Below the pieces are notes generated by a model. The model did not search any database, was not told the origin of the DNA, and saw only the letters and a program-made list of their open reading frames with translations. Made by a program: the position numbers and the translations under genes. 46,132 nt of DNA, taken from Candidatus Aenigmatarchaeota archaeon. Lineage in GTDB: Archaea; Aenigmatarchaeota; Aenigmatarchaeia; CG10238-14; SCSR01. Location: NCBI GenBank assembly GCA_039000165.1, contig JAWBTW010000006.1, forward strand, positions 1 through 46,132. Direction: 5' to 3'. Below are positions 786 through 43,870 of this stretch, piece after piece. The first letter of the stretch is position 1, and each line of letters opens with the position of its first letter.

Positions 786-2381
786 ATGATTAAAAACATA
801 AGGTTTTTAGTAGTTTTAGCTTTTTTAGCAATTTCTGCTTACTTTTTGCTTGCTCCTTTACTTTTTGCATCAAAAGGGGTTGTTGTAGTTTCCATAGATG
901 AAAATAGTAAGTGTGAAGGAATAAGGGAGGGAAGCATAATAACTGAAATGCGTGGTACAGCAATTTCAAGCGAAGAAGATTTTGAAAATTATTTGAAAAA
1001 TGTTAAGCAAGGGGAATACGTAAGCATGGTAATAAACAACTTGCCAGGAGGTTGCACAGCTTTAAACGATAGCTACTTGGGAATAAAAGTAAGAGATTTA
1101 GAAAAGAAAGTTTTAAAGTTTGGAATTGATTTAGCAGGGGGAAAAGTTTCGATTTTTTCTTCACCACAAAACCTAGAAAAAGTGAAAGAAATTCTGGAGA
1201 AAAGAATAGAAATTTTTAAAGTTCCTGAAGCCAGCGTTTCGATTTCTGACAAAACAATAAAAATAATAAGTTTGAAAGATGAGAAGCTTGAACCTTTACT
1301 TATAAAAGGAAAATTTGAGGCAAAAATCTTTGAGGAAATTAAAATAAAAAACAACACTGGAAAAATTCCTCTTGGACAAGAGGATTACACTATAGTCCTT
1401 GAAGATGGTAAGATAAAAATTGATGGAAATTACTACAAAGAAAACGAAACCTTTACTTTACAATCCATAGAATTTACGTTAAAAAACATAACTAACTCAA
1501 GTGTTTATCTTGAAGCTCTAGTTTTCACAAAAGAAGATGTAAAAGTTCTAGCATATGGGTTTGTAAAGTATAACCCCTCAGCAAAACTTTACGAGTTTAA
1601 TATTCCTGTAGAAATTTCTGAAGAAGCTTCTGAAAGAATTTCAAAGATCATAGACAGGATGCCGACAACAACAGAATTTGGAGCTATAGTTTTAAACGGA
1701 AGGTTAATTTACTATTTAGATGGAAAAGAAGTTAGCAACCTAGCAATTCCCTTTAGCATGGTTGGGAGAAAAATTGAGAGCATTTCTATCCTTGGTTTTA
1801 GAGAAAGTGAAGAGGCAGCAAGCCTAGAGAAAAACAAAATTGAAGCTTCTTTAAAAACAGATGAGCTTGAAAAGATGGAATTAATTAAAACAGTTGAACT
1901 AGAAGCAAAATACCCGATGCTTTTAAATTATTTTTTCCTCGTCTCAATTTTAGAGGCGGCCATTTTTTCTTTAATTTCTTTTACTAGATATAAACAAGGA
2001 AAATTTTTAATTTCACTGTTCCTTCTTTCTTTACTTCAAATCTTCTTGATATTTGGGGTTATAGCAATTTCGCAAAGCTTAGTTCCAAACAGCTGGTTAA
2101 TAAATTCTTCCACTCTTTTTGGAAGCTTAACAGCAGAGACCTTAACTTTAATTCAATTTATGTTTATTCTTGAGAAAAGAGTGAGAAAAAAAATAATAAG
2201 CTTAGAATTCAAGTTAAAAAAGATAATAAGTTTATCCAACCTTCTAAACATTTTAACGATATTTTCTTCTCTCGTTCTTATTTTTGTTTTCAAAAACTTT
2301 GGATTAAGCATGCTAACAGGTTTTTTCTTTAGCTTTCTATTTTTAGTCCCACTTCTTGATGAAATAGTAAAATCTACTTGA
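786..2381 (+). CDS. secD: Divergent SecD-like translocase subunit with N-terminal PDZ-like domain
   Basis: N-terminal TM, PDZ-like segment (GVVVVSIDENS...GIREGSIITEM), SecD signature LKFGIDLAGG, 'ILEKRI', C-terminal TM helices. Confidence 0.7.
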   Translation: MIKNIRFLVVLAFLAISAYFLLAPLLFASKGVVVVSIDENSKCEGIREGSIITEMRGTAISSEEDFENYLKNVKQGEYVSMVINNLPGGCTALNDSYLGIKVRDLEKKVLKFGIDLAGGKVSIFSSPQNLEKVKEILEKRIEIFKVPEASVSISDKTIKIISLKDEKLEPLLIKGKFEAKIFEEIKIKNNTGKIPLGQEDYTIVLEDGKIKIDGNYYKENETFTLQSIEFTLKNITNSSVYLEALVFTKEDVKVLAYGFVKYNPSAKLYEFNIPVEISEEASERISKIIDRMPTTTEFGAIVLNGRLIYYLDGKEVSNLAIPFSMVGRKIESISILGFRESEEAASLEKNKIEASLKTDELEKMELIKTVELEAKYPMLLNYFFLVSILEAAIFSLISFTRYKQGKFLISLFLLSLLQIFLIFGVIAISQSLVPNSWLINSSTLFGSLTAETLTLIQFMFILEKRVRKKIISLEFKLKKIISLSNLLNILTIFSSLVLIFVFKNFGLSMLTGFFFSFLFLVPLLDEIVKST

Positions 2382-2904
2382 AAATTTTTCCTAAAATTTT
2401 TGAAGAAGCTCTTTCTGGTAAAGCTTTAGGAAAAACCAAACCTAAGAGAGCTCCAACGATAACATCCGAAGGATAATGCACACCTGAATAGATTGAAGAA
2501 AGAGGAATCAGGAAAAGCAAGTATATCGATAAAAATTTTTTAAGCCAGCTTGGAGAGTTTTCTGGAATAAAGAAAAAAGAAAGATAGGATATGAAGGCAT
2601 GGGAAGAAGGAAAGGATGGGTCTGCTTTCTTGAAAACAACATTTATCTCCTGGTCTGCATCATAAGGCCTTTCTCTTCCAACTAAATATTTAAGTGAAAC
2701 GACAAAAATATAGCCAATAACGGCAACAACAAAAAGATGGAAAAGTTTCTTATGTTGTCTATTTCTAAATAAATCATAAGCGACATAAATCAAGTAAATA
2801 TAAACAGAATAAATAAGGAAAATTGCGAAATAAGCTAAGTGAACAGAAAAAAAGTTAACGTTGAGAAATTTTACAACTTCCAAATCTACCTCGGCTAAAT
2901 TCAT
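2374..2904 (-). CDS. PAP2-family membrane phosphatase
   Basis: K-x6-RP, SFPSSH, GVHYPSDV motifs; hydrophobic segments. Confidence 0.9.
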   Translation of the reverse strand: MNLAEVDLEVVKFLNVNFFSVHLAYFAIFLIYSVYIYLIYVAYDLFRNRQHKKLFHLFVVAVIGYIFVVSLKYLVGRERPYDADQEINVVFKKADPSFPSSHAFISYLSFFFIPENSPSWLKKFLSIYLLFLIPLSSIYSGVHYPSDVIVGALLGLVFPKALPERASSKILGKIFK

Positions 2905-5588
2905 AGCCTGACATACCTCCCTCTTGTCTCACCAAAGTAAAACAGAAGTTCGCCACCACAAACTAAACATTTTCCGATTAAAGGAACTCTTCTGAAGGTT
3001 TTATTACATTTGTTACAAACAAAACCGTCAAAATCGCTCAAAACTTCTTCTTGTTTCTTGTGATTAAAAGCTTCTGAAATGGAGAGAAGCCTTCCAAAAC
3101 TCATAAGCTCGGACTTTTTAACTCCTAAAGCATCGAAAACCCTTTCCAAAGGTGGAAGGAGCTGGCTTTCTATATAATATTTTGAGTCGATTTTTAGGTT
3201 GTGAGTTTTAACATACTCTGGATCTTCTGCTCTTTCTGAAAGAAGTTGAGTTCCTTGAATTATCACATAACCAATTCTATCCCCAATTCCCGGAGCTCCT
3301 GCAGGTGACCTTTTTCTTAACTTTTTAACTAATTCAATATGAGGTTGAACTCCTTTGTATTCCTTTAAAGATTTTGTTATTCCTCTGGTAATTATCAAAT
3401 CCTCTATAGGAATCTCATTTCTACTGAGTTTTGTTAAAACTTCTCTAACATATCTTAAAGCTTTTTTCGGGTTCTGCTCCTTCAAAATTATATCAAGAAC
3501 TTTATACAAAGTTTTGGAAACCAGATCACACCAGTCTCTCCTAACAGTTTCTATTCCTTTCATCACTATTTTTTCCTTCCATTCTCCGTTAGATTTTTCG
3601 AAGCTCCAACCTGCATATCTTTTCTTTGTCAACACAAGCAAAGTCTTAAAAATACCTTCTATTTTCATTTTAACTATACCTGCATGCTCTTTGTTTATAA
3701 ACTCAGCTAACTCTTCACCTAACTTTAAAGCTTCTTCTAAATCAGTTGTTAAAAGCTTCACCATTATAGAATCTGTATCGCCATAAACAACCTCATAACC
3801 TTTCTTACTTTCAACAATATTCTTTGTTTTTTCTATCAAAAACCTTCCACAGCTTGTTATCGCGTTTGCGATTTCCAAAACATAAAGCCTTGCTCTTACA
3901 TAGCCTGTATATCCATAAAAGGCGTTTGCCATTATTTTCAGGGCATATTGCTTCGCATCTAAAACTTTTTTCTCGTTTTCGTTTTTTGCCTTCTCCATTT
4001 CTTTCTTAACCCTGTCTCTTTCTTCTATCAAAAATTTCAAAATTTTGGGAATAATTCCTTCCCTTACTTCCTTCCTTACAAAAAAAGCACCAGAAGGTGT
4101 TTTTATGAGCTCACCTTCACTTTCCTTGACAACCAAAGTCGTTGGACAAATGTTAAAAGAAATAAATATAGAAGGATACATCGAACGGAAGTCAAGATAA
4201 GCAACACAATTCGTATGCAGACCAACTTTTGGCTCTAGAACCAAAGCTCCCTTCAAACCTTTTACTTCTCTTTCTTCCATTCTTTTGAAAACTTCATCAG
4301 AAGAAGGCTTAACAGGGATAACAAAATCTCTCTTGTTAAATTCACGAAGCAATAAGTTCTCTACTCTTGCACTTTCTTTACTGTCTAAAACATCTTGCAA
4401 AAGTAAACCTGAAACTTTTGAAAGTTCCACAAATTTACTCAACATGTCCTTCTCCACTAAAAGTTTCAAGGTAAGTTCAGCATCCTTTCTTGCATAATTT
4501 ATCAATTCGTGCTTCTGCTCTTCAGAACCGTTCCAGAATTTTGAAATCTCACTATGAGTTATATCGACTTTATCTTCCTTCAGCAATTCTTTCGCAACAT
4601 CTCCTAGGCCGTACCTTTTAAGCCTAAGCAAGCCTTTTTCGACAGCCTCTTTAACAAGCTCATAAACATCAACCACAACCCTCCCAAAAACAGAGTGTCT
4701 ATACCTGATGCCAACTTTCTTTGAACTTGTAGCTTTTTGCTGGCACCTTCCTAAAACTCTTGGTATTTTGTTAACTCTTAACCTTTCAAGAATGTATGGT
4801 AAATCAAAATTGTTTATGTTGTAACCAACTATCACATCCGGATCGAATTTTTTTATCACTTCGACAAACTCCTGGAGCATTTCAGCCTCATTTGAAAAAA
4901 CGACAACATCCTTTTCAAATTTTTTAACAGGTTTTGAAACTAAAACTAATGTATTGTTGTTTTCGTAAGCAGGAAAAAAGGAAAGGCTTATTATTATTAT
5001 CGGGTCTTTTAAAGGGTTGGGTGTACCTTCCTTTCCTGGAACAACTTCTATATCTAAGCTTAAGTATTTTAGGTTAACATTTGATTTTTCATCTATACTT
5101 TCAATTTTTCTTACTTTAATCACTTTATCTGCCTTGACAAGAATAGTGTTCATGTTTTGACCCTCAACTTTAATCCAACCCATTCCCGAAATGTTAAAGT
5201 CTGCCATAAATCTGTATTTGAAAAGGATGTCTGCTTCAAAAATCTTATCGATAAAATCTTTTTTGTTAAGCTCCTCTCTTATTTCTGGAACTTTGGAAGG
5301 ATCAGTAAGAGTTACTCTTAACATTTTTACCTTATTCTTGCTGAATCCTATTGGTAAAAATTTTTCCTCTTCCTTAATTTCAACTAATAAGGAGAAAAAT
5401 TTTTTCTTCATAAAATCCACAAACTCTTGCTCGCAACCTTTTTTAGGTAAAACGTAAAAATAAGGTAAAAAATTCTCGTAAAAGGCACAAACTGTTTTTC
5501 CTTCTTTCGTTTTTCCGAAAATTCTTATTATTGGTTTGCCGTCTAAAGGAATGTAATCGCAGTCAAGAACTTGAAATATCACTTCCAT
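2901..5588 (-). CDS. polB: Family-B DNA polymerase with C-terminal DP2-like zinc finger
   Basis: ExoI DIE, ExoII YNINNFD, ExoIII YARKD; Pol motifs DFRSMYPS, KIMANAFYG, YGDTDS; C-terminal CNKC-x-RRVPLIGKCLVCGG. Confidence 0.97.
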   Translation of the reverse strand: MEVIFQVLDCDYIPLDGKPIIRIFGKTKEGKTVCAFYENFLPYFYVLPKKGCEQEFVDFMKKKFFSLLVEIKEEEKFLPIGFSKNKVKMLRVTLTDPSKVPEIREELNKKDFIDKIFEADILFKYRFMADFNISGMGWIKVEGQNMNTILVKADKVIKVRKIESIDEKSNVNLKYLSLDIEVVPGKEGTPNPLKDPIIIISLSFFPAYENNNTLVLVSKPVKKFEKDVVVFSNEAEMLQEFVEVIKKFDPDVIVGYNINNFDLPYILERLRVNKIPRVLGRCQQKATSSKKVGIRYRHSVFGRVVVDVYELVKEAVEKGLLRLKRYGLGDVAKELLKEDKVDITHSEISKFWNGSEEQKHELINYARKDAELTLKLLVEKDMLSKFVELSKVSGLLLQDVLDSKESARVENLLLREFNKRDFVIPVKPSSDEVFKRMEEREVKGLKGALVLEPKVGLHTNCVAYLDFRSMYPSIFISFNICPTTLVVKESEGELIKTPSGAFFVRKEVREGIIPKILKFLIEERDRVKKEMEKAKNENEKKVLDAKQYALKIMANAFYGYTGYVRARLYVLEIANAITSCGRFLIEKTKNIVESKKGYEVVYGDTDSIMVKLLTTDLEEALKLGEELAEFINKEHAGIVKMKIEGIFKTLLVLTKKRYAGWSFEKSNGEWKEKIVMKGIETVRRDWCDLVSKTLYKVLDIILKEQNPKKALRYVREVLTKLSRNEIPIEDLIITRGITKSLKEYKGVQPHIELVKKLRKRSPAGAPGIGDRIGYVIIQGTQLLSERAEDPEYVKTHNLKIDSKYYIESQLLPPLERVFDALGVKKSELMSFGRLLSISEAFNHKKQEEVLSDFDGFVCNKCNKTFRRVPLIGKCLVCGGELLFYFGETRGRYVRL

Positions 5589-5597
5589 ATTCTTAAA

Positions 5598-6767
5598 TTA
5601 AGTGAAATCTATTTTAATAGTTTCTCTTGTTTTTAAGTTAACTAACCAAAAAACAGGTTTGGTTAAAAAACTTCCTGTGGTTAGGATTGTTGTTCCCTTG
5701 TAATTTAAAACTGAAGGAAAATGAAAATGACCAGAAGCTAAAATATCTGGAACTAAATCTATGATGAATGGGTTTGGGATGTAAATTTGCTTTTGTGTTT
5801 GTGGGATTTGTCTCTTCCTGAGTATGTTTAATAAAATCTTTTCAGGTAGAGCATTGAAAAAAGAAAAATCAAAATTTGGATGAAGAATTAGAAGATTTAA
5901 GGATTTTTCAACTTTAAGAAATGATGGACTTTCTATGAATTCTTCTTTTTCTGGATCTATCTCTCCCTTAAGCCAGGTATAATGGTAGCCTTTTGGTAAG
6001 TTACTAAACATTTCTTCAAAATCCTCAACTCTTGAAGAAATGTCGCCAAGAAAAAAAACATAAAGTTTTTTGTATAAGGAGTTGTTTATCCAATCTAAAA
6101 ATTTCTCATAACTTTTTTTGTTGAAATTCTTGTCATCCATATGAAAATCTGAAACAAAAAGACAAAAAGCCTCTTCAGAAGTTTTACTAATTTCTTTTTT
6201 AAGTGGAATTTCAGGTAAAACAACCTTTTTCACATAAATCCTTTCACCTTCTCTTTCACAAACCAAACCTAAAACTTCATCTTCAAGAATAAAGTTAAAA
6301 TCTTCACTCAAATTCTCAAAGTAAACTGTTTGTTCGCCAGTTAAGTCTTCCACTACCAAATACTTTTCGTTCTCATTTTTTTCTTTCACCATAACTATTA
6401 ATGAAAACTTCCTTGATTTTGGTGAGATTTTATTTATTGATATTAAATTAACTAAGTCCAAATGCTTAACCAAAAATTTTTTTATTTCCTCATATTTTGT
6501 GGAAAGGAAGTTAGTATAATCAGAAACGCTTAGAATCTTATCTTCTTTTTTCGGAGTTTTTAAGATTTCTGAGTAATAGGTTAACTTTTTTTCTATTTCT
6601 TTTAAAACATCTAGAGTCACTATTAAGGGGTAGTTTGATTTTTTTAGTTCTTCCAAGTAGAAATTTATGTTCTTTTTTTCAAGTAAGTAATCTAGTGCTT
6701 GTGGGTTTAGTTGGAAGCCGTTTTTCAAAAATTCCTTAATAATTTGTTGCCTTTCCATACAACTCAT
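5598..6767 (-). CDS. PolD small-subunit (DP1)/B-subunit-like protein, probably nuclease-degenerate
   Basis: N-terminal helical domain (IIKEFLKNGFQLNPQALDYL), OB fold (IVMVKEK...VEDLTG...ILEDEVLG), phosphoesterase motifs SDFH, GD, PDILASGHFH, YKGTTIL. Confidence 0.85.
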   Translation of the reverse strand: MSCMERQQIIKEFLKNGFQLNPQALDYLLEKKNINFYLEELKKSNYPLIVTLDVLKEIEKKLTYYSEILKTPKKEDKILSVSDYTNFLSTKYEEIKKFLVKHLDLVNLISINKISPKSRKFSLIVMVKEKNENEKYLVVEDLTGEQTVYFENLSEDFNFILEDEVLGLVCEREGERIYVKKVVLPEIPLKKEISKTSEEAFCLFVSDFHMDDKNFNKKSYEKFLDWINNSLYKKLYVFFLGDISSRVEDFEEMFSNLPKGYHYTWLKGEIDPEKEEFIESPSFLKVEKSLNLLILHPNFDFSFFNALPEKILLNILRKRQIPQTQKQIYIPNPFIIDLVPDILASGHFHFPSVLNYKGTTILTTGSFLTKPVFWLVNLKTRETIKIDFT

Positions 6768-6775
6768 AGGAATTT

Positions 6776-7033
6776 TTATCTTTTTAATATATAAACTGTA
6801 AGACCTTTCTTACCTTCTTTTTTAGAATGAGGTGTTGGGATTGCTTCTATTTTTCCAATTTCAACAAGTTCGTTTAAATATTTATCTACAGTGTTCCAAC
6901 TAACTTCCTTACCAATTTTTTCACTAATCATACTACGAATTGCGTTTATAGAAATAGGGGTGTTTACATCTTTCAAAACTTCCACTATAAGGTTTTGAAC
7001 TTCAAACCTTTTACTTGGTCTTCCTCTTTTCAT
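6776..7033 (-). CDS. Small winged-helix protein
   Basis: 85 aa; basic N-terminus KRGRP, HTH (SINAIRSMISEK...VSWNTVDKYLNELVEIGKI) and wing; 8 nt upstream of the DP1-like gene. Confidence 0.75.
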   Translation of the reverse strand: MKRGRPSKRFEVQNLIVEVLKDVNTPISINAIRSMISEKIGKEVSWNTVDKYLNELVEIGKIEAIPTPHSKKEGKKGLTVYILKR

Positions 7034-7048
7034 CTTTTCACTATCATT

Positions 7049-7062
7049 TTTTATGAACTTTC
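7049..7062 (-). repeat. Inverted copy of the array core (GAAAGTTCATAAAA on minus strand)
   Basis: TTTTATGAACTTTC is the exact reverse complement of the 14-mer repeated in 7122-7207. Confidence 0.85.
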
Positions 7063-7071
7063 TAAATTAAG

Positions 7072-7080
7072 TATAAATAA
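7072..7080 (-). promoter_or_regulatory. Putative TATA box of the wHTH-DP1-polB operon
   Basis: TTATTTATA on the minus strand about 40 nt upstream of ATG 7033. Confidence 0.5.
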
Positions 7081-7121
7081 ACAATATAAAATTTTCAGGA
7101 AATTTTTTTACCTTATTACTT

Positions 7122-7207
7122 TTCATAAAATTTTTCCGAAAGTTCATAAAAATTGTTTGAAAGTTCATAAAATTTTTCCGAAAGTTCATAAAAATTGTTT
7201 TTGAAAA
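7122..7207 (+). repeat. Four tandem 21-bp direct repeats in ABAB arrangement
   Basis: TTCATAAAATTTTTCCGAAAG (7122, 7164) alternating with TTCATAAAAATTGTTTGAAAG (7143; variant at 7185). Confidence 0.92.
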
Positions 7208-7282: not shown

Positions 7283-7669
7283 TTACAAAAATTTCATCAA
7301 CCCATTTATCATGAAGAATTTTATGATGATAGCTCGAACAAAATTTTCTTTTCCCCTTAGTGGTTCATAGCTGGTTGGGTTGGAATGTTTTACTTTCACT
7401 AACAAATTCATCTTAACCAATTTGTTAAGCCTTTTTCTTAACGCTTCTATCCCTATCTTAAAGTGGTGAGTGTTCTTAAGTTCGCTATAAAGAAGTGGAA
7501 AACAATACGGTTGAGTATCGTTTGGAAACTCTTTACCTGTCATGTAAAATTTTCTTAAAATTTGAATGTCAATAAAATCCAAACGTTCGATTAAAGATAG
7601 AATTTCATCCTTCATTTCTAAATTTTTTTCTATAGAGATATTATCCATAAGTGAATCTGTGCTGTTCAT
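7283..7669 (-). CDS. Winged-helix protein of unknown function
   Basis: LDFIDIQILRKFY, HTH-like LLYSELK...IGIEALRKRLNKLVKMNLLVKV, wing NPTSY; ends LMKFL. Confidence 0.65.
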   Translation of the reverse strand: MNSTDSLMDNISIEKNLEMKDEILSLIERLDFIDIQILRKFYMTGKEFPNDTQPYCFPLLYSELKNTHHFKIGIEALRKRLNKLVKMNLLVKVKHSNPTSYEPLRGKENFVRAIIIKFFMINGLMKFL

Positions 7670-7752: not shown

Positions 7753-8439
7753 TTATATCAGATTGATTATTTTAACGTCAATTTTTTCATCGACAATATC
7801 GATTATTCCACAATACCCTTCGGGAAATCTCCCAGAATTTATTATCTTTGTGTTTTCAATTTCGTCAATTCCTCTTGCTTCATGCACATGTGAGCATATC
7901 GCAACTTTTGGTTTATACTTTTCTATAAAATTTCTTACAGCTTCTGATCCTATATGTGCTCCTGTATAAGCAATATCAACCTTCGTGTTAAACGGAGGAA
8001 CATGGGTAACTTGAATTTTTATCTTACATTCTTTCACTTTTTCATAACCTTTCCTCAAACCTTCTTCAATCTCATTTTCATTGGGTTCTAAAGGTGTGTT
8101 AAAAGGAGTTTTAGCACCACCAAACCCATAAAAACCAACGTTTTCTATTATCTTTCCTTCACCATGCAGGCTTATTCCTTTTTCTTTAAATAATTCTACA
8201 AGTTCCTTATCAAAATTTCCTGGAACTGCAAGTATAGGTTTTTTAAAAGTTTTAAATTCTTCTATTACAAGCTCACCTATATCCCTAGCTTCAAAACCTT
8301 TAGGAAGATTGTAATCAGTGAAGTCTCCAAGCAAAACTATAACATCAAAATTTATGAAAGAAATTTTATCCATGTAAGTAATTATGTTTTCAACATCGTT
8401 ATGGATGTCGCTTGCGATTAAAATCCTCATTAAACTCAA
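7753..8439 (-). CDS. Calcineurin-like metallophosphoesterase (Icc-related)
   Basis: SDIH, GDFTD, PGNFD, THVPP, HVHE motifs. Confidence 0.9.
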   Translation of the reverse strand: MSLMRILIASDIHNDVENIITYMDKISFINFDVIVLLGDFTDYNLPKGFEARDIGELVIEEFKTFKKPILAVPGNFDKELVELFKEKGISLHGEGKIIENVGFYGFGGAKTPFNTPLEPNENEIEEGLRKGYEKVKECKIKIQVTHVPPFNTKVDIAYTGAHIGSEAVRNFIEKYKPKVAICSHVHEARGIDEIENTKIINSGRFPEGYCGIIDIVDEKIDVKIINLI

Positions 8440-8469
8440 TATATTAAATCACTATATAAAAATAAATTG

Positions 8470-8802
8470 ATGGTAGTTAGCAAGAAAAAAGGTTATAGGG
8501 TTGAAAGGAAAATAAGAAAAATTTTTGAAAGTTATGGTTGGAAAGTTGTAAGGGCAGGGGCAAGCCTAGGAGAGGCGGATCTAATCTGCATAAAAAATAA
8601 AAAATGTATCTTATTACAAATCAAATCAACAAAAAAAGACGCTTTATACTATAAAGGTTATTTTTCCGATAAGTTTGAAGGATTTCCTTTTTATGTAGTG
8701 GTGGACTTCGGTTATGGAAAAATTAGAATAACAAAGCCGAAGGAAAAAATCACCCTGGAAGAAGGAAAGGAATTAGAGGATTTCCTAAAAAATATTAAAT
8801 AA
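8470..8802 (+). CDS. hjc: Holliday junction resolvase Hjc
   Basis: KKGYRVERK...GWKVVRAGAS...ADLI...QIKST. Confidence 0.85.
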   Translation: MVVSKKKGYRVERKIRKIFESYGWKVVRAGASLGEADLICIKNKKCILLQIKSTKKDALYYKGYFSDKFEGFPFYVVVDFGYGKIRITKPKEKITLEEGKELEDFLKNIK

Positions 8803-9388: not shown

Positions 9389-9859
9389 ATGCTTACCGAT
9401 AAAATTAGGGAAATTCAAAAAGAAATATTAAACTTCAAAGGAGTACCCATAATAGTAGAAGGAAAAAAAGATGAGGAAGCTTTAAAGAGGCTTGGTTTTC
9501 AAAATATTGTAAAGATTTCCGGCAAACCCTTGGAGAAAGTTTTTGAAGAAGTTAGCAATTTCAAATCTGTTGTCATTCTTTCAGATTTCGATGAAGAGGG
9601 TAAAAAAATTTTTGCAAAATTGAGAAAATTACTCTCTTCAAATGGAATAAAAGTTCACACTTTTTTAAGGAACAAGATTAAATCAACTCTCAAAATCAAA
9701 AAAATTGAAGAAATAAACTCTTTAACAAAGCTTATGGAGGATGATTACTATGGCAAAACTTGCTCAATCTACGATAAAATATTTAATAGAAGTAGAATTT
9801 TCTTGCGACGGGATGGTGGAAAAACCAGACGTAATAGGGGCAATATTCGGGCAAACTGA
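9389..9859 (+). CDS. Small TOPRIM-domain protein (RNase M5-like)
   Basis: IIVEGKKD and ILSDFDEEG TOPRIM motifs. Confidence 0.85.
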   Translation: MLTDKIREIQKEILNFKGVPIIVEGKKDEEALKRLGFQNIVKISGKPLEKVFEEVSNFKSVVILSDFDEEGKKIFAKLRKLLSSNGIKVHTFLRNKIKSTLKIKKIEEINSLTKLMEDDYYGKTCSIYDKIFNRSRIFLRRDGGKTRRNRGNIRAN

Positions 9860-10607
9860 AGGTTTGCTTGGTCAAGATTTGGATTTAAGGGAATTGCAAA
9901 GAAGTGGAAGAATAGGAAGAATAGATGTTGAACTTAACGTGACTGAAGAAGGAAAAACTATTGGTAAGTTCTTTGTTCCTTCAAGTCTTGATTCTTCAGA
10001 AACAGCTTTACTAGCAGCTTCTTTTGAGACTATAGAAAGAATTGGACCATGCAACGCAAAGGTTAAAGTTAAAACAGTAAAGGATGTGAGAAATGCTAAG
10101 AGGGATTATGTTCTTAAAAGGGCGAACGAGATTTTAGAAAAACTTTTGAGCGAAGAGATTCCTTCAACTTCAAAAATTACTGAGCTACTAAGGGAAAACG
10201 TGAGAGCTGCACAGATAACCGAATTTCAAGGCTTACCAGCAGGCCCTGATGTTCAAAATTCAGACGAAATAATAGTAGTTGAGGGAAGAGCAGATGTTAT
10301 TAACCTCTTGAAAAATGGGATTAAGAATGTTATCGCAATAGGAGGAGCAACAATACCTAAAACAATAATAGATTTGACAAAAGAAAAAGTTACGACTTTG
10401 TTTGTAGATGGTGATAGAGGAGGAGAACTAATCATCAAAGAGCTTCTTAACCTCGGTGAAATCGATTATATAGCAAGAGCACCAGAAGGTAAAGAAGTGG
10501 AAGAACTAACAAAAAAAGAAATTTTTAAAGCTTTGAGAGAAAGGATTTCTATCGAGCAATATAAACCTGAAGTCAAAACTAAGGAGCTAACTGAATTTAC
10601 CCAATAA
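9750..10607 (+). CDS. dnaG: Archaeal DnaG (primase-like/exosome-associated), short form
   Basis: VEKPDVIGAIFGQTEGLLG, ELQRSGRIGRI, VVEGRADV, DGDRGG, GKEVEEL. Confidence 0.93.
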   Translation: MAKLAQSTIKYLIEVEFSCDGMVEKPDVIGAIFGQTEGLLGQDLDLRELQRSGRIGRIDVELNVTEEGKTIGKFFVPSSLDSSETALLAASFETIERIGPCNAKVKVKTVKDVRNAKRDYVLKRANEILEKLLSEEIPSTSKITELLRENVRAAQITEFQGLPAGPDVQNSDEIIVVEGRADVINLLKNGIKNVIAIGGATIPKTIIDLTKEKVTTLFVDGDRGGELIIKELLNLGEIDYIARAPEGKEVEELTKKEIFKALRERISIEQYKPEVKTKELTEFTQ

Positions 10608-14023: not shown

Positions 14024-14100
14024 AATCAACAATTAACTTTTTTTAAATTGTTTTTATTAAAACTTAAAAAGAGTTTGCAACTTAAGTTTAAAGTGTGTTT

Positions 14101-16260
14101 ATGAAAGACGAAGAAATTATAGAAAAAGTTTTGGAAGTTTCAAAGTTTGAAAAGCTTAATCCTGTGCAAGAAGAAGCTATAAAGAAAGGTTTGCTTAAGG
14201 GAAAAAATTTAGTGATATTTGCGCCTACTGCAAGCGGAAAAACGCTTTGTGCAGAACTTGCAGCCGTTAAAACAATACTTGAAAAAAGAGAAAAAGTTGT
14301 TTACATGGTTCCTTTAGTTGCCTTAGCAAACGAAAAGTATAAGGATTTTAAAGAAAAGTACTCTAAGCTTGGAATAAAAGTTGCTTTATCTGTTGGAGAT
14401 TTGGATAATTCTGATCCATGGCTTAAGAATTATGATTTAATCGTTGTTTCAAACGAAAAAATGGATAGTTTAATAAGACATGGAGCTGATTGGATTGCAG
14501 AAGTTGGGCTAATAGTTGTTGATGAAATCCATCTCTTACAACAAGCAGACAGAGGGCCAACTTTAGAAATAGTTCTAACTCTTCTAAGAAAACTTATTCC
14601 AAACGCACAGGTTATCGCTTTATCTGCTACGATAAAAAATGCAGAAGAATTAGCTGAATGGTTAAGCGCAGAGACTGTTATTTCTGAGTGGAGACCTGTA
14701 AAGCTCTATAAAGGAGTAAGCTTTCCATATAGGATAAAGTTTTTGGAAAAAAATGGCTATGAGTTAGACTCAAGCTTACCTTTAGAAGCTTCAATCATAA
14801 AAAACACCTTAGAATCAAGGAAACAGGCTTTGTTTTTTGTTTCTACTAGAAAAAGTGCAGAAAGCTTGGCAGAAAAGTTAGGAAAAGTTGTGAGTCAATA
14901 CTTAGGAAGAAAAGAGAAAGAAGATTTAGAGGGTTTGGCAAATGAAGTTGAAAGTGTGCTAGAGATTCCAACGCAGCAATGTAAAAAATTGGCAAGATGT
15001 ATTAGACAAGGAGTTGCTTTTCATCATGCCGGCCTTCTTTTCCAACAAAAATCTTTGATAGAGGAGAATTTTAGAAAAGGTTTGATTAAGGTTATAGTTG
15101 CAACCCCAACCTTAGCTTATGGTGTTAATTTACCTAGTTGGCGTGTAATAATGAGGGATCTAAAGAGGTATCAACCAGGAATAGGTGCTGTTTTTGTTTC
15201 AATTTTAGATGTTCAACAAATGCTTGGAAGGGCTGGAAGACCACAATACGATGATTTCGGTGAAGGCATAATTTTGTCAAAAAGTGAAGAAGAGGCAGAA
15301 GAAATTATAGAATATTACATTTATGGTGAAGCAGAAGAAATTCAGTCAAAACTGGCAGCAGAACCTGCTTTGAGAATGCACACTTTAGCTTTAATAGCAA
15401 ACGAATTTTGTAAAACAGAAAAATCTTTGCTAGAATTTTTTTCAGAAACTTTTTTTGCTTATCAGTATGGGGAAGTTTCGATTATAAAAGAAAAAATTTT
15501 AGAAATTTTGAAATTACTTGAGGAATGGAAGTTTATCGAGAGAAAAAAAGAAAAACTTAGTGCTACAAGGATAGGAAGAAGGGTTTCTGAACTTTACATT
15601 GATCCTTTAACCGCAAACTATTTTATCCAATCTCTTAAAAAAGCAACAAAAAAGGAAGTTCAGCCTTTCAGCTTTTTACAAGTTATTTGTAACACAATAG
15701 AAATGAAACCTTTGTTAGGCATAAGAACTGGCGAATTTTCAGAATTAAACGAAAAAATTGCTGAAAGGGAAAGTTTGTTTTTACAAAAAATACCAGAAGA
15801 ATGGGATTTGGAATTTGACGATTTTTTAAGAAGTGTTAAAACAGCTTTAATGTTTGAAGCTTGGATAAACGAAGCAAGCGAGGAAGAAATTTTAACAAAA
15901 TTTAAAGTTGCACCAGGAGAATTTTACGGAAGAAGAGAAATAGCAGATTGGTTAATTTATTCTTTGCAGGAGCTTGCCCTTCTTCTAGGTTACAAGAAAT
16001 TGCTTTTGCCTATAAGAAAGCTTAGGGTTAGACTTGAGTATGGGGTAAAAGAAGAGCTTTTACCTTTGGTAAGACTAAAAGGAATAGGACGGATAAGAGC
16101 AAGGAAATTGTTTAATTCTGGAATCAAAACCATTTCTGACTTGAAAAAAATTCCTTTAGAAAGTTTGGCTAGGCTTGTTGGGGAAAAAACAGCGTATAAA
16201 ATCAAAGAGCAGTTAGGGGAAATTAGGAAAAAAGAAGAAAGGCAAATTACTTTAAGATAA
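14101..16260 (+). CDS. hel308: Ski2-like DNA helicase Hel308/Hjm
   Basis: [31 protein letters not shown]-terminal Hh[11 protein letters not shown]. Confidence 0.95.
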
Positions 16261-25430: not shown

Positions 25431-26483
25431 TTACTTTTTACCAAAAAATCTGCCTAATTCTCTAATCAACCTTCTTTCAAAAATTTCCCTATTTTCTTCC
25501 TTTATGCTTGCTCCTGCAGCATGAGGATGACCACCACCACCGTTTAAACCTTTTGCGCTTCTTTCCATTATTTTTCCCAGGTCTATTTCTAAGCTTCCTC
25601 TGTACCTTGCATGGATTGCGTATTTTTTTCCAACTTTTCTAAAAACAACAAGAACCTTTTCAGGAAATTTGCCAGACATTTTTGTTGAAATGAGGGAAGT
25701 TATTTCTCTATGTTTTGTTTCAATTTCTGAAATCAGGAGATTTACTTCTTTATATTCTTTTAAATTCTTCCAGAAAATTTTTTCACAATCTTTTATTTTT
25801 TTCAAGTATTTTTTTAACGCTTTTCTTACAGCTTCGTTTTTCTTGAACTCTTCCAAAGAGCTAGTTCTTTCCAACAACCTAAAAGTTTTTTCAAAACCAA
25901 TTTCGCTAATTATTCCCACAAGTTTTTCAACTTCTTTCCAAACTCTTGTTTTTGGTATATCTTCTTTACTTTTTATTTTCAACCCTTTAAGCAAATCTTT
26001 ACAATCAGAAAAACCAAAATCACTAATAGTTCCTATTATGGCCAACCATTTTTCACTTTCAGTGTTAAGAATTTTTGAAAAAAACTTGTAAGTAACATAA
26101 GAAGCAGGCTGATAGATTTTTGGATTTTTAATTCTTGGGTTGATATACACAATTCTTTTTGCGTTTAAGTTTTTTCTTGGTGGGTGATGATCTATGATGA
26201 GGATATCTTTTTTAAACCTTAGTAATTTTTCTTTCATGTAAGAAATGTCTATATCTAAAACGATTATCTTATCAAAATTCTTAACTTTTTTTGCTATTTT
26301 TTCAATTTCTTCATTGGAGGATGCGCACTTTCTTTCAACTTTTAAACCAAGTTTTTTCATACATTTAGAAAATATTAATCCCGAAGATAACCCGTCTAAA
26401 TCCTTGTGGTAAACCAAGAGAATTCTATCGTCAGGTTTAATCTTCCTTAGAAAAGAAATTCCTCTTTTTATCAATTCTTCCAT
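25431..26483 (-). CDS. DHH/DHHA1 phosphoesterase (RecJ-like)
   Basis: YHKDLDG, VLD, IIDHH, GTISD, GGGHPHAAG. Confidence 0.92.
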   Translation of the reverse strand: MEELIKRGISFLRKIKPDDRILLVYHKDLDGLSSGLIFSKCMKKLGLKVERKCASSNEEIEKIAKKVKNFDKIIVLDIDISYMKEKLLRFKKDILIIDHHPPRKNLNAKRIVYINPRIKNPKIYQPASYVTYKFFSKILNTESEKWLAIIGTISDFGFSDCKDLLKGLKIKSKEDIPKTRVWKEVEKLVGIISEIGFEKTFRLLERTSSLEEFKKNEAVRKALKKYLKKIKDCEKIFWKNLKEYKEVNLLISEIETKHREITSLISTKMSGKFPEKVLVVFRKVGKKYAIHARYRGSLEIDLGKIMERSAKGLNGGGGHPHAAGASIKEENREIFERRLIRELGRFFGKK

Positions 26484-35898: not shown

Positions 35899-36906
35899 TC
35901 AGCTTATCCTTCTTAAATTTTCTATGTTTTCACAACTTTTTCTCACATGACAACCCAAACATACTCTTCTTTCTAAGTTTTGAATTTTCCCCTTTTCTGG
36001 TATTGTTTTTCCCCTACAAATCATTTCTATTTCTTTTTTATATTTTAAAAACTTTCTTTTCATTTCTTCATCTATGTTTACTTTAACAAGTGTTTTCGAT
36101 TCGAAGAATATAAGATAGCTTTTTTCTACTTTTTTTCGGAAAAACTCTTCAAGAAGTATAGCTTCTCCTACGTTCTGAAGCAAGTGCTCCTCTTTTACAC
36201 CTTTTTTGCTCAACTTCCCAAGTTTTATATCTATTGGTATTATCTCATTCTCTTTTATTCCAATAATGTCAGGAGTTCCGGTTAGACCGATCTTAAAGGA
36301 GCAAAGTGTTTTTTCTGTGAATAAGTGTTTAAAACCTTCTTCGTTCAGGAGTTCGTAAAATTTTAAAATAAAATCCTTTAAACTTTCCCTACTTAAGCTT
36401 GTTTTTCCTTCATACTTCTCTAAAGCCTTTTCAACACAATACTCGATAACATTTTCTAGAGGTCCTTTCATGAGGTTTCTGATGAAAATGTTTAAGGCAA
36501 GATGGATTGCTTCCCCATCCCATGTTTTCCCTTTTCTTTCCTTGAATTCTTTAGCTAAAACAACTTTTTCTAAAAAAAGCCTTCTTGGGCATTGATAAAA
36601 TTTACCCACTTCTAATGGTGTAACAAAAAGTTTTCTGTTTTTATTTGCAATGAACTTTATTTTCTTTAAAATTTCTTCTACATTCCCTATTTCTTTTTCA
36701 ACTTTTATCTTTCCTCCCTTACCTTTTATTATTTTTCTCTTCTCAAGTTCTTGCAGCATTATGAAGAGAATGTCCGAAGAGTTTACATTTTTAGAAAGCA
36801 TTTTAATTAAAATTTTCTCCAGTTCAACTTCTTCGTTTAAGTAAAGATTAAGGATTTGGGCAATTGTATAAATATCTTTATCTCTAACTTCAACCCCAAC
36901 TTTCAT
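35899..36906 (-). CDS. Solo Cas4-like PD-(D/E)xK nuclease with N-terminal extension
   Basis: YQCPRR, G..IH, GTPD...PIDIK, LQ, C-terminal CLGC...C (1+3 Cys). Confidence 0.8.
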   Translation of the reverse strand: MKVGVEVRDKDIYTIAQILNLYLNEEVELEKILIKMLSKNVNSSDILFIMLQELEKRKIIKGKGGKIKVEKEIGNVEEILKKIKFIANKNRKLFVTPLEVGKFYQCPRRLFLEKVVLAKEFKERKGKTWDGEAIHLALNIFIRNLMKGPLENVIEYCVEKALEKYEGKTSLSRESLKDFILKFYELLNEEGFKHLFTEKTLCSFKIGLTGTPDIIGIKENEIIPIDIKLGKLSKKGVKEEHLLQNVGEAILLEEFFRKKVEKSYLIFFESKTLVKVNIDEEMKRKFLKYKKEIEMICRGKTIPEKGKIQNLERRVCLGCHVRKSCENIENLRRIS

Positions 36907-43057: not shown

Positions 43058-43870
43058 ATGGAAGAACTGAAAAAACTTGAGACCGAACTCAAAATAAGAG
43101 GGTTTTCTGAAAAAACCATAAAGGCTTACCTTTTCTGGAACAAGAAGTTTTTAGAAAATGTTAAAAAAAGGCCTGAAGAAATTGAGCAGGATGATGTCAA
43201 AAATTTTATAGCACAAAAAATTTCAGAAAATGTTTCACCTAAGTCGATAATTCTGATCAGAGCTGCCTTAAAGTTCTTCTACGATGAAGTTTTAGGTAAG
43301 AATATAGTCAATTTTAAATCACCAAAAGTTTCGAAAAGTTTACCTGTTGTCCTTACAAAGGAAGAGGTAAAAAACCTTATAGACTCGATAAAAAATAAGA
43401 AACATCAACTTATTGTTAAGCTTCTTTATTCTTCTGGTTTGAGGTTAAGCGAGTTAGTTAACCTTAAGGTTGGTGATATTGAGTTAAACGAAAGCGTTGG
43501 TTGGGTGAGAGGTGGAAAAGGAAAAAAAGACAGGCTTTTTATCATCTCAAAAAAGCTTTGCGATGAACTTAAAGAATTAATTGAGGGAAGAGATGAAGAA
43601 GAATTTCTCTTTCCTGGAAGGAAAGGAAGGATGTCTGAAAGAAATGTGCAGAAAATAATTAAAATTGCGGCAAAAAAAGCAGGAATAGATAAGCCTGTCC
43701 ATCCTCACACTTTGCGTCACAGCTTTGCAACTCACTTGCTAGAAGCAGGAGAAAACATAAGAAAGATTCAAGAACTTTTAGGTCATTCTAATTTATCTAC
43801 AACTCAAATTTATACCCATGTTTCAACAGAAGAATTAAAAAAAGTGAAAAATCCTCTTGATGAGTTATAG
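43058..43870 (+). CDS. xerA: XerA-like tyrosine recombinase
   Basis: SGLRLSE, GKGKKDR, HTLRHSFATH, LLGH, TTQIY; full catalytic set. Confidence 0.9.
   Translation: MEELKKLETELKIRGFSEKTIKAYLFWNKKFLENVKKRPEEIEQDDVKNFIAQKISENVSPKSIILIRAALKFFYDEVLGKNIVNFKSPKVSKSLPVVLTKEEVKNLIDSIKNKKHQLIVKLLYSSGLRLSELVNLKVGDIELNESVGWVRGGKGKKDRLFIISKKLCDELKELIEGRDEEEFLFPGRKGRMSERNVQKIIKIAAKKAGIDKPVHPHTLRHSFATHLLEAGENIRKIQELLGHSNLSTTQIYTHVSTEELKKVKNPLDEL

What the first reader, a model, noticed from the sequence alone, without database searches (positions are those of the whole stretch)
2901..6767. Eukaryote-like two-subunit polymerase: PolB with a DP2-type zinc finger next to a DP1/B-subunit paralog
Seen: an intact PolB ends with CNKCNKTFRRVPLIGKCLVCGGELL, and the gene 9 nt upstream is a DP1 homolog; no DP2 is in the window. 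Established: PolD DP2 ends with a CxxC-x3-RRxPLxGKCxxCGG finger in its DP1-binding region, and eukaryotic Pol alpha/delta/epsilon/zeta bind inactive DP1-derived B subunits through C-terminal Cys domains. Typical archaeal PolB3 enzymes lack this. Inference: a PolB-DP1 heterodimer, either an intermediate or a convergent analog of eukaryotic replicases. C-terminal Zn domains on some archaeal PolBs have, as I recall, been noted in comparative genomics, so the novelty is more likely the complete operon and complex.
Basis: partly seen in the sequence, partly recalled or inferred. Interest (0 to 1): 0.92.

Follow-up and report, generated by a model that had tools for sequence, protein, structure and literature searches.

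The report
Known Aenigmatarchaeota PolB–DP1 two-subunit replicase
This archaeon has lost the usual archaeal replicase PolD and instead encodes a family B polymerase carrying PolD's docking zinc finger next to a catalytically dead DP1 subunit, a eukaryote-like arrangement that is real here but was already described in 2020 and tested for binding in 2025.

Summary
Window 2901-5588 (-) encodes an intact 895-aa PolB. Its last 40 residues carry a four-Cys finger that aligns to the Zn-III finger of PolD DP2. Nine nt upstream, 5598-6767 (-) encodes a 389-aa DP1 homologue. The genome (783 kb, 91.6% complete) shows no DP2 and no second DP1. The closest relatives are Candidatus Aenigmatarchaeota MAGs.

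The DP1 homologue lacks the proton-donor His of the exonuclease site: the GNHD motif reads GEID. A complex model docks the finger's RRxP loop and the C-terminal tail onto the most conserved DP1 residues, with score 0.73 against a best control of 0.00. The DP1-PolB gene pair recurs in 28 of 30 loci examined.

This is the published 'B6-aenigma1' PolB with inactive DP1 (PMC7544198). Yeast two-hybrid has already shown DP1 binding to the Aenigmatarchaeota PolB-DP2CTD (PMC12680538).

Small additions here:
- the conserved operon;
- a minimal CTD made of linker, Zn ribbon and tail, with no helix bundle;
- an 85-aa winged-helix gene leading the operon, with a repeat array in front of it.

The parts
2901..5588 (-). 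PolB catalytic subunit, 895 aa. The exonuclease motifs (D179/E181, N257/F261/D262, Y365/D369) and polymerase motifs (D466/Y471, K551..Y558 G559, Y602 D604 T605 D606) are intact.
   Evidence: These residues are invariant in 104 orthologues. AlphaFold2 model: mean pLDDT 87.3.
3051..3098 (-). Flexible linker between the PolB thumb and the C-terminal domain (residues 831-846). It holds a degenerate PIP-like segment: G832-[KR]-Q834-x-x-L837 in 98 and 95 of 104 relatives, where this copy has L834 and I837.
   Evidence: pLDDT is below 50 only at 831-846. The PIP consensus is recalled, not tested.
2937..3023 (-). DP2 Zn-III-type zinc ribbon (residues 856-884): C858, C861, C874, C877 and the R866-R867-x-P869 loop.
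   Evidence: Aligns to DP2. The Cys are invariant; R866 is kept in 96, R867 in 100 and P869 in 101 of 104. Residues 866-872 and 880-883 lie in the modelled interface.
2904..2936 (-). Short C-terminal tail (residues 885-895) that takes the place of the helix bundle of the DP2 and eukaryotic CTDs. [KR]889 and [RK]891 are conserved.
   Evidence: The model shows beta strands at 880-885 and 888-890 and no helix after the finger. Residues 891-895 contact DP1-like 78-81 in the model. Conservation: 99 and 101 of 104.
5598..6767 (-). DP1-like B subunit, 389 aa: N-terminal region, OB fold and a degenerate phosphodiesterase domain. It is the only DP1 homologue in the genome.
5955..5966 (-). Degenerate phosphodiesterase motif III: G268-E269-I270-D271 where canonical DP1 has G-N-H-D.
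   Evidence: Alignment of 128 short and 12 long DP1 forms. The His of GNHD is P. abyssi H451, seen by comparing 5ihe with 6hmf. The depositors call it the proton donor, and the H451A variant is exonuclease-deficient.
6336..6350 (-). Acidic docking patch E140-D141-x-T143-G144 of the DP1-like OB domain.
   Evidence: D141 is kept in 123, E140 in 112, T143 in 116 and G144 in 116 of 123. The patch lies in the modelled interface opposite the RRxP loop.
6776..7033 (-). 85-aa winged-helix protein with an invariant MKRGR N-terminus, encoded 8 nt upstream of the DP1-like gene. Probably a DNA-binding regulator of the operon.
7035..7207 (.). Repeat array in front of the winged-helix gene: four exact copies of a 14-nt motif, three direct copies 21 nt apart (7138, 7159, 7180) and one inverted (7049-7062).
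   Evidence: expected 0.25; 0 of 100 shuffles reach 4. These are the only exact copies in the genome. The motif lies in the same place in close relatives.
2374..2904 (-). PAP2-family phosphatase gene that overlaps the PolB stop by 4 nt. It is linked only in the closest relatives and is probably unrelated in function.
   Evidence: Found downstream of PolB in L006, L007 and L008 only, out of the 5 loci that reach that far.

Best explanation
The window comes from an Aenigmatarchaeota chromosome and encodes this phylum's substitute for PolD. The catalytic subunit is a proofreading family B polymerase. A flexible linker joins it to a minimal C-terminal domain derived from the DP2 Zn-III finger.

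The finger's Arg-Arg-x-Pro loop and the short tail behind it dock onto the acidic patch of the OB/phosphodiesterase body of a DP1 homologue, which has lost its nuclease proton donor. DP1 has thus become a non-catalytic B subunit, as in eukaryotic Pol alpha, delta and epsilon.

What is shown here:
- the domain identities;
- the failure to find DP2;
- the loss of the catalytic His;
- the conserved operon;
- a complex model that passes its controls.

What is shown by others: DP1 binds the PolB-DP2CTD of this phylum in yeast two-hybrid.

What is inferred: the pair is the main replicase, and the dead DP1 is kept as a tether to the replisome, for instance through its N-terminal region to GINS, as DP1N does in Thermococcus.
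For: Identity and taxon. The nearest loci, at 83-90% identity, are Candidatus Aenigmatarchaeota MAGs. The contig also carries ribosomal proteins L1 and L10, FtsZ, an RNA polymerase subunit, Nop5, fibrillarin, Kae1 and GluRS.

Finger. It aligns to DP2 (E 3e-5 and 4e-5). In the five sampled genomes of family f10 that keep DP2, three of the five show a match to residues 855-887 of this PolB (48-52% identity). In two of them it lies on the same contig and in an open frame of the same length as the DP2 N-domain hit.

No DP2. There are 0 hits in the genome and hits in 6 of 121 sampled genomes of the phylum, 5 of them in family f10. The f10 PolB alignments stop at residue 830-835, so those PolBs lack the CTD. 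The one f10 PolB tested is nearer to this genome's second, ordinary PolB (431 against 278 bits). A PolB match with best E <= 1e-130 is present in 114 of 121 genomes.

Dead DP1. GNHD reads GEID, and canonical H320 is Q. Across 128 short forms the metal ligands decay (D207 in 50, H209 in 36 of 128), while P340, D341, N355, Y356, K357, L378 and R381 stay nearly invariant.

Binding. The complex score is 0.73 (runs 0.73, 0.67, 0.75) against a best of 3 controls of 0.00. The mark was reached by 58 of 80 solved complexes and 2 of 110 mismatched pairs. Partner pLDDT is at least 68, and at least 81% of contacts are shared between runs. The interface residues are the most conserved ones on both chains. 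Literature: the Zn-III loop docks in the DP1 OB/PDE groove, and a 20-aa Zn-III peptide binds DP1 with nanomolar affinity (PMC6355029). Yeast two-hybrid shows the interaction for the Aenigmatarchaeota pair (PMC12680538).

Operon. A PolB start lies directly downstream of the DP1-like gene in 28 of 30 loci.

Main replicase. In 12 of 23 genomes of the same family, the only PolB match at E <= 1e-20 is the CTD-bearing one.
Against: The complex model resembles solved DP1-DP2 and eukaryotic CTD/B-subunit complexes. By the tool's own caveat its pass may therefore reflect likeness rather than binding of this copy, and my own alignments were used.

This copy of the DP1-like protein still has six of the eight canonical active-site residues of motifs I-V checked (D207, H209, D242, H296, H347, H349), so metal binding or a residual activity is not excluded.

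The genome is 91.6% complete in 25 contigs, so a DP2 on unassembled DNA cannot be formally excluded. One genome of the same family, G091, has a DP1-DP2 pair on a 3-kb contig.

A second PolB with a PIP-like C-terminus exists here and could do part of the replication.

The N-terminal 75 residues of the DP1-like protein find no solved DP1N by sequence. The GINS-tether idea rests only on the NCBIfam alignment starting at profile position 3 and on a GINS gene in the genome.

Placement in the published 'B6' clade was not tested with a tree.
Confidence: 0.82

Rival explanations
1. The PolB-CTD/DP1-like pair is a specialised repair or lagging-strand enzyme. The second, ordinary PolB (contig C17, 830 aa) is the main replicase, as PolB1 is in Crenarchaeota.
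For: The second PolB is intact and close to Thermococcales PolB (551 bits against 381 bits for the CTD-bearing one). It ends in a PIP-like Q-x-x-L-x-x-F-I (consensus recalled). The operon's neighbours include repair genes: Hjc, a Hel308-like helicase and a metallophosphoesterase.
Against: In 12 of 23 sampled genomes of the same family only one PolB match at E <= 1e-20 was found, and it is the CTD-bearing one. A strong match to this PolB is present in 114 of 121 genomes. Families that keep DP2 have only the ordinary PolB, which suggests that the CTD form took over DP2's role. Matches are not copy numbers and these genomes are incomplete, so the argument is not airtight.
Confidence: 0.12
2. PolD still exists. 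The DP1-like protein partners a DP2 that is missing from the incomplete assembly, and the PolB finger is a vestige.
For: The assembly is 91.6% complete. G091, of the same family, carries DP1 and DP2 on a 3-kb contig with GC close to that of its own DP1-like locus (0.384 against 0.393).
Against: No DP2 was found in 115 of 121 sampled genomes, including 22 of 23 of the same family. The proofreading His is lost, which would leave a PolD without proofreading. The finger and tail are under strong constraint. The DP1-like gene is coupled to PolB, not to a DP2.
Confidence: 0.03
3. The locus is a binning or assembly artefact or a mobile-element polymerase, as was shown for the 'B6-aenigma2' sequences that were Baldrarchaeia contigs in Aenigmatarchaeota bins.
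For: PMC12680538 reports such contamination for the two-finger form. A tyrosine recombinase gene lies at 43058-43870 in the same window.
Against: The 46-kb contig carries core informational genes at an even GC of 0.28-0.36. The same gene order recurs in many genomes of the phylum. This is the single-finger form, which the 2025 paper accepts as truly Aenigmatarchaeota.
Confidence: 0.01

Closest known systems
Aenigmatarchaeota PolB with DP2-derived CTD plus inactivated DP1 ('B6-aenigma1', Kazlauskas et al. 2020, PMC7544198; 'PolB-DP2CTD', PMC12680538)
   Same: Same phylum. The C-terminus carries a single four-Cys motif most like DP2 Zn-III. DP2 was not found, DP1 is retained but inactive, and the CTD is shorter than in DP2 ('degenerate', 'shorter length'). 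DP1 binding is modelled here and was shown there by yeast two-hybrid.
   Different: Nothing of substance. This is another genome of the same system. Three things are added here that neither main text mentions (supplements not readable): the gene pair is conserved as an operon; the short tail after the finger is conserved and sits in the modelled interface; and part of the phylum has a winged-helix gene leading the operon.
Archaeal PolD (DP1-DP2), e.g. Pyrococcus abyssi, PDB 6HMS/6T8H
   Same: The B subunit is homologous to DP1 (OB plus Mre11-like phosphodiesterase fold). The docking element is homologous to Zn-III with its basic RRxP loop, and an acidic patch on DP1 receives it.
   Different: The catalytic subunit is a family B polymerase, not the double-psi-barrel DP2. 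DP1 has lost the H451-equivalent proton donor. The helix bundle of the DP2 CTD is missing, so proofreading must come from the PolB exonuclease domain.
Eukaryotic Pol delta (POLD1-POLD2 / Pol3-Pol31), and likewise Pol alpha and epsilon
   Same: A family B catalytic subunit has a Cys-rich C-terminal domain that binds a nuclease-dead DP1-type B subunit. This PolB's best solved match is human Pol delta (410 bits), against 166 bits for the genome's ordinary PolB. The DP1-like profile weakly reaches Pol31 and POLD2 (E 5e-4 and 0.017).
   Different: There is one Cys motif instead of two (CysA and CysB). No Fe-S-type CysB and no helical part of the CTD are present. No Pol32/p66-type third subunit was identified. 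The B subunit is much closer to archaeal DP1 than to eukaryotic B subunits.
Baldrarchaeia PolB3-DP2CTD (PMC12680538)
   Same: A PolB fused to a DP2-derived CTD, in a lineage that lacks DP2 and keeps DP1. Yeast two-hybrid shows binding to DP1.
   Different: According to that paper the Baldrarchaeia CTD is full length and resembles the DP2 and eukaryotic CTDs, whereas the Aenigmatarchaeota CTD is shorter with a different predicted structure. That matches the linker, Zn ribbon and tail seen here.

Membership tests
Aenigmatarchaeota PolB-DP2CTD ('B6-aenigma1') | Family B polymerase with intact exonuclease and polymerase motifs | tested here: met
   Pfam DNA_pol_B E 2e-122 and DNA_pol_B_exo1 E 1e-37. 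The motif residues are present and invariant in 104 orthologues.
Aenigmatarchaeota PolB-DP2CTD ('B6-aenigma1') | One C-terminal four-Cys motif most similar to DP2 Zn-III | tested here: met
   DP2 models NF003103 and NF011302 match residues 856-883. PDB DP2 chains match at E 4e-5. There is a single CxxC...CxxC, with all four Cys invariant.
Aenigmatarchaeota PolB-DP2CTD ('B6-aenigma1') | Host is Aenigmatarchaeota and the genome lacks DP2 | tested here: met
   The nearest loci are Candidatus Aenigmatarchaeota MAGs. Of the 21 listed relatives that carry an organism name from a source, 19 are named Aenigmatarchaeota or Aenigmarchaeota, one 'archaeon' and one 'Omnitrophica'. There is no DP2 hit in a 91.6%-complete genome.
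Aenigmatarchaeota PolB-DP2CTD ('B6-aenigma1') | Co-occurs with an inactivated DP1 | tested here: met
   A single DP1 homologue lies next to the PolB. Motif III reads GEID instead of GNHD.
Aenigmatarchaeota PolB-DP2CTD ('B6-aenigma1') | Placement in the B6 clade of the PolB tree, next to the published reference sequence | not tested
The only indirect evidence is that this PolB scores much higher against Pol delta than the ordinary PolB does.
Archaeal PolD small subunit DP1 (active proofreading exonuclease) | Complete Mre11-type motifs I-V, including the GNH[DE] proton-donor His | tested here: not met
   Column 270 is I here and H in 12 of 12 long DP1 forms. N269 is E. All five DP1 NCBIfam models score far below their cut-offs.
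Archaeal PolD small subunit DP1 (active proofreading exonuclease) | Partner DP2 encoded in the genome | tested here: not met
   within the limit of 91.6% completeness.
Eukaryotic-type replicative PolB holoenzyme (catalytic subunit CTD with CysA and CysB, plus B subunit) | Two Cys motifs and a helical CTD | tested here: not met
   The sequence has only one four-Cys motif. The model shows no helix after the finger.
Eukaryotic-type replicative PolB holoenzyme (catalytic subunit CTD with CysA and CysB, plus B subunit) | A nuclease-dead DP1-type B subunit bound through the CTD | tested here: inconclusive
   The loss of the catalytic His is shown. Binding is only modelled here (0.73 against 0.00). 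It was shown by yeast two-hybrid for this phylum by others.

The most novel reading that the evidence does not exclude
The 85-aa winged-helix protein encoded 8 nt upstream of the DP1-like gene may be more than a regulator. It could be a third, DNA-binding accessory subunit of the PolB-DP1 holoenzyme, playing the part that winged-helix modules play elsewhere in replisomes. It lies directly upstream of the DP1-like gene in 26 of 34 relatives' loci, and in L010 and L011 it is better conserved than the DP1-like protein. Together with the minimal 'finger plus tail' docking, that would make this a three-part, Pol-delta-like enzyme in a DPANN archaeon.
Probability: 0.1. Interest if true: 0.55.

Novelty: already known. 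Interest (0 to 1): 0.2.

Why it matters
The system matters for how eukaryotic replicases arose. It shows, in a living archaeal lineage, a family B polymerase that has captured PolD's docking finger and turned DP1 into an inert B subunit. That point has already been made in print (2020) and the interaction has been tested (2025), so this window adds another example rather than a discovery.

What a specialist might still use from this analysis:
- The DP1-PolB pair is a conserved operon across the phylum.
- The Aenigmatarchaeota CTD reduces to a flexible linker, one Zn ribbon and a conserved basic/aromatic tail. Both the ribbon and the tail sit in the modelled interface, so this is the smallest natural B-subunit docking module seen in this analysis.
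- Within one phylum the DP2-keeping family lacks the CTD form and the others have it. That makes the phylum a natural before-and-after series for the replacement.
- A lineage-specific winged-helix gene with a repeat array in front of it leads the operon.

Tried and rejected
Third subunit by likeness to Pol32/p66N. The winged-helix protein was folded (pLDDT 83.8) and searched against the PDB and the ESM Atlas. The best matches are DNA-binding domains of Zur/Fur, PadR and LmrR regulators (E 3.5e-4 and weaker). The Rpa2 winged helix appears only at rank 45, and at E 0.67 by sequence profile, which is not significant. I therefore read the protein as a regulator.

Origin of replication at the repeat array. 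Orc1/Cdc6 lies on another contig (C3, E 9e-84; a second, weaker one on C10). The repeats are conserved only among the closest relatives.

DP1 N-terminal domain. The first 75 residues of the DP1-like protein find no solved DP1N (best E 0.084, to an unrelated ribosomal protein). The GINS-tether role stays an inference.

Is G091's DP1-DP2 contig contamination? GC (0.384 against 0.393) does not decide it.

Link to the published reference sequence.

Supplementary files of the papers are closed. The figures and tables of PMC7544198 and PMC12680538 on Aenigmatarchaeota DP1 motifs, gene context and the AlphaFold3 interface may already contain what I list as small additions.

Besides the two papers named, they gave no other paper on an Aenigmatarchaeota PolB-DP1 enzyme. 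'Not in print' for the operon rests on word searches for operon, adjacent, neighbo and genomic context in PMC7544198 and for operon and adjacent in PMC12680538, in the main texts only.

Full report
1. What is in the sequence

On the minus strand, ORF 2901-5588 gives an uninterrupted 895-aa protein. It matches Pfam DNA_pol_B (E 2e-122) and DNA_pol_B_exo1 (E 1e-37). The exonuclease and polymerase motif residues are present and invariant in an alignment of 104 orthologues.

Residues 856-883 match the C-terminal part of two NCBIfam DP2 models (E 3e-5 and 2e-4). Searched against the PDB, the last 70 residues hit only DP2 chains at significant E-values: P. abyssi residues 1120-1148 of 1270 at E 4e-5, and T. 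kodakarensis at E 2e-4.

Nine nt upstream, ORF 5598-6767 gives a 389-aa protein. It matches five DP1 models, all far below their curated cut-offs (best E 1e-40). It also matches solved DP1 chains, at E 1e-14 alone and E 5e-39 as a profile of 123 relatives.

2. Genome and taxon

The window is contig C6 of a 783-kb assembly in 25 contigs, 91.6% complete. Own-genome searches gave these results:
- no DP2 N-domain;
- no DP2 full-length match apart from the PolB tail itself;
- one DP1 homologue, which is this one;
- two PolBs, this one and an 830-aa one on C17 without any Cys tail.

The closest PolB loci in public genomes (83-90% identity) are titled Candidatus Aenigmatarchaeota archaeon. Of the 21 listed relatives that carry an organism name from a source, 19 are named Aenigmatarchaeota or Aenigmarchaeota, one 'archaeon' and one 'Omnitrophica'. 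The contig carries core genes: L1, L10, FtsZ, an RNA polymerase subunit, Nop5, fibrillarin, Kae1 and GluRS. Its GC is even, at 0.28-0.36. It is therefore chromosomal and not an obvious mis-bin.

3. How general the system is

The C-terminal 136 residues found 281 proteins at E <= 0.001. Of the 120 listed (the query plus 119), all 120 have a CxxC...CxxC in the last 75 residues, with 17-30 residues after it. The stricter RR-x-P pattern is met by 70 of 120.

In a sample of 121 genomes of the phylum (G000 included):
- The DP2 N-domain was found in 6: 5 of 5 in family f10 and 1 of 23 in the window's own family.
- The DP1-like protein was found in 96 with this query.
- A PolB match with best E <= 1e-130 was found in 114. 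The seven weaker ones are the five f10 genomes plus G043 and G073.

The f10 PolB alignments stop at residue 830-835. The one f10 PolB compared is nearer to this genome's ordinary PolB (37% identity, 431 bits) than to the CTD-bearing one (32%, 278 bits). In three of the five f10 genomes (G016, G060, G097) residues 855-887 of this PolB also find a match (48-52% identity). In G060 and G097 that match lies on the same contig and in an open frame of the same length as the DP2 N-domain hit. Within the phylum the two states are thus nearly exclusive: DP2 with long DP1 and ordinary PolB, or no DP2 with short DP1 and PolB-CTD. The one exception is G091, treated below.

Of the 30 best DP1-like loci (own locus included), 28 have a PolB N-terminus starting directly downstream on the same strand. 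One exception ends at a contig edge (L044) and one has no PolB in the flank (L045). The same order is seen in five named MAG loci.

4. The B subunit is catalytically degraded

I aligned 128 short forms (300-420 aa) with 12 long, canonical forms. In the long forms the Mre11-type residues are kept: D207 and H209 in 12 of 12; G241 and D242 in 12 of 12; G268 in 12, N269 in 10, H270 in 12 and D271 in 11; H296 in 12; H347 in 9 and H349 in 12.

This protein keeps D207, H209, D242, H296, H347 and H349, but reads G-E-I-D at 268-271 and Q at the canonical H320. The His of GNHD is P. abyssi H451: the wild-type chain 5ihe and the H451A chain 6hmf differ exactly there. The depositors call H451 the proton donor and the H451A variant exonuclease-deficient.

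Across the short family the ligands decay further (D207 in 50 and H209 in 36 of 128; His is not among the four commonest residues at column 270). By contrast E140, D141, T143, G144, P340, D341, N355, Y356, K357, L378 and R381 are invariant or nearly so. Selection therefore acts on a surface, not on catalysis.

5. The docking

The AlphaFold2 model of the PolB (mean pLDDT 87.3) shows low confidence only at 831-846. It then shows a small beta-rich module at 849-895 and no helix after the finger. The CTD is thus a linker, a Zn ribbon and a tail, without the helix bundle described for the DP2 CTD. This agrees with the 2025 paper's wording that the CTD is 'degenerate' and 'shorter' with 'a different predicted structure'.

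The complex model used the DP1-like alignment and PolB residues 820-895. It scored 0.73, 0.67 and 0.75 (median 0.73), against 0.00 for the best of three controls. The mark was reached by 58 of 80 solved complexes and 2 of 110 mismatched pairs. Partner pLDDT is at least 68 and at least 81% of contacts are shared between runs.

The tool warns that such a pass can come from likeness to solved complexes, and solved DP1-DP2 and eukaryotic CTD/B-subunit complexes do exist. It also warns that its calibration did not use my alignments. The pass therefore supports binding but does not show it.

The contacts are sensible. PolB 866-872 (the RRxP loop), 880-883 and 891-895 meet DP1-like 76-92, 126-129, 140-145 and 162-163. 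These are the most conserved positions on both sides:
- PolB: R866 in 96, R867 in 100, P869 in 101, L870 in 100, G872 in 104, E880 in 97, F883 in 103, [KR]889 in 99 and [RK]891 in 101 of 104.
- DP1-like: D141 in 123, E140 in 112, T143 in 116, G144 in 116 and Y92 in 105 of 123.

This mirrors the solved PolD interface, where the basic Zn-III loop sits in an acidic OB/PDE groove and a 20-aa Zn-III peptide suffices for nanomolar binding (PMC6355029, passages).

6. Function

The polymerase and proofreading sites of the PolB are intact, and the DP1 nuclease is not. The pair therefore works like a eukaryotic catalytic subunit with a B subunit. That it is the main replicase is inferred from three things: DP2 was not found, a strong match to this PolB is present in 114 of 121 genomes, and in 12 of 23 genomes of the same family the only PolB match is the CTD-bearing one (matches are not copy numbers). 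The second PolB here could still share the work, and I give that rival 0.12.

Why keep a dead DP1? In Thermococcus the DP1 N-terminal domain binds Gins51 and links PolD to the CMG helicase, as Dpb2 does for Pol epsilon (PMC9023282, passages). Here the NCBIfam DP1 alignment starts at profile position 3 and the genome has a GINS gene. However, the N-terminal 75 residues find no solved DP1N, so this step is inference only.

7. Comparison with what is known

Kazlauskas et al. 2020 (PMC7544198, sections 19-21 read as passages) describe exactly this. [quoted passage not shown] It also reports that DP1 binds the PolB-DP2CTD of both by AlphaFold3 and yeast two-hybrid, but does not bind PolBs without the CTD. 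Finally, it shows that the two-finger 'B6-aenigma2' sequences were Baldrarchaeia contamination.

The present PolB is the single-finger form. Its Pol-delta-like character fits those papers: human Pol delta is its best solved match, at 410 bits against 166 bits for the ordinary PolB. Clade membership was not tested with a tree, and the reference accession could not be fetched.

8. Seen beside the finding

An 85-aa protein (6776-7033) is encoded 8 nt upstream of the DP1-like gene. tblastn finds it directly upstream, on the same strand, in 26 of 34 relatives' loci. In L010 and L011 its identity is higher than that of the DP1-like protein. In the phylum sample it was found in 35 of 121 genomes: 23 of 23 in the window's family, 7 of 7 in f3, and none in f2 (0 of 10) or f10 (0 of 5) with this query.

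The protein has an invariant MKRGR N-terminus (AT-hook-like; that label is recalled) and a winged-helix fold. Its nearest solved folds are Zur/Fur, PadR and LmrR DNA-binding domains (Atlas).

In front of the gene lie four exact copies of a 14-nt motif, three of them 21 nt apart and one inverted next to the start codon. The expected number is 0.25, and 0 of 100 shuffles reach 4. These are the only exact copies in the genome. The motif is present at the same place in the closest relatives only. The simplest reading is an autoregulator with its operator. A role as an accessory subunit is not excluded.

9. Verdict

But the system is already published, including a binding test for the same phylum. 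Novelty: already known. Interest 0.2.

Noticed in passing
window 6776-7033 (-): An 85-aa winged-helix protein with an invariant MKRGR N-terminus is encoded 8 nt upstream of the DP1-like gene. It sits directly upstream of the DP1-like gene in 26 of 34 relatives' loci and was found in 35 of 121 sampled genomes of the phylum. All hits that carry an organism name are from Aenigmatarchaeota. Its fold is closest to Zur/PadR-type DNA-binding domains.
   Followed up: partly
window 7035-7207: Four exact copies of a 14-nt motif lie just upstream of the winged-helix gene: three direct copies at 21-nt spacing and one inverted. They are the only exact copies in the genome, and the motif is conserved at the same place only in the closest relatives (L006, L007, L020). 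It looks like an operator array. Orc1/Cdc6 is on other contigs.
   Followed up: partly
window 7283-7669 (-) and 7753-8439 (-): A 128-aa ORF of no known family and an intact 228-aa calcineurin-like metallophosphoesterase lie upstream of the operon. ORFs with matching ends appear in the same order in L006, L007, L010 and L011. An active phosphoesterase thus sits next to a dead DP1 phosphoesterase.
   Followed up: no
window 8467-8802, 9741-10607, 14095-16260, 25431-26483, 35899-36906: The window is rich in replication and repair genes: Hjc resolvase, a Toprim (DnaG-like) protein, a Hel308-type helicase, a DHH/DHHA1 (RecJ/GAN-like) protein and a PD-(D/E)XK Cas4-like nuclease.
   Followed up: no
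L015 (G091:C64:1-3058) and L033 (G091:C11): One genome of the window's own family has a canonical DP1-DP2 pair on a 3-kb contig and also the DP1-like/PolB-CTD operon. The GC of the two loci is alike (0.384 and 0.393), so this is either coexistence of both systems or contamination from a similar organism.
   Followed up: partly
G005, G016, G027, G060, G097 (family f10); L049-L058: One family of the same class keeps DP2 and a long DP1 (open frames of 460-523 aa). It has only an ordinary PolB of about 770 aa without the finger. DP1 and DP2 are on different contigs there.
   Followed up: partly
L004 1426-3918 (-) (G000:C17), and window 3051-3098: The genome's second PolB ends in a PIP-like Q-x-x-L-x-x-F-I. 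The CTD-bearing PolB family keeps a degenerate version (G-[KR]-Q-x-x-L-x-[DE]-A-[IF]) in the linker just before the finger, as if the finger had been added behind the old C-terminus. In this copy the Q is an L. The PIP consensus is recalled.
   Followed up: partly
proteins P0005, P0021, P0039, P0043, P0074: Several close orthologues of the PolB are 1250-1335 aa long and carry intein/LAGLIDADG Pfam domains. The PolB in this window is intein-free.
   Followed up: no
G013:C2 and G013:C21: One genome of the same family has two copies of the winged-helix/DP1-like gene pair, on two contigs.
   Followed up: no
window 43058-43870 (+): A tyrosine recombinase (phage integrase family, E 9e-49) lies near the right end of the window.
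   Followed up: no
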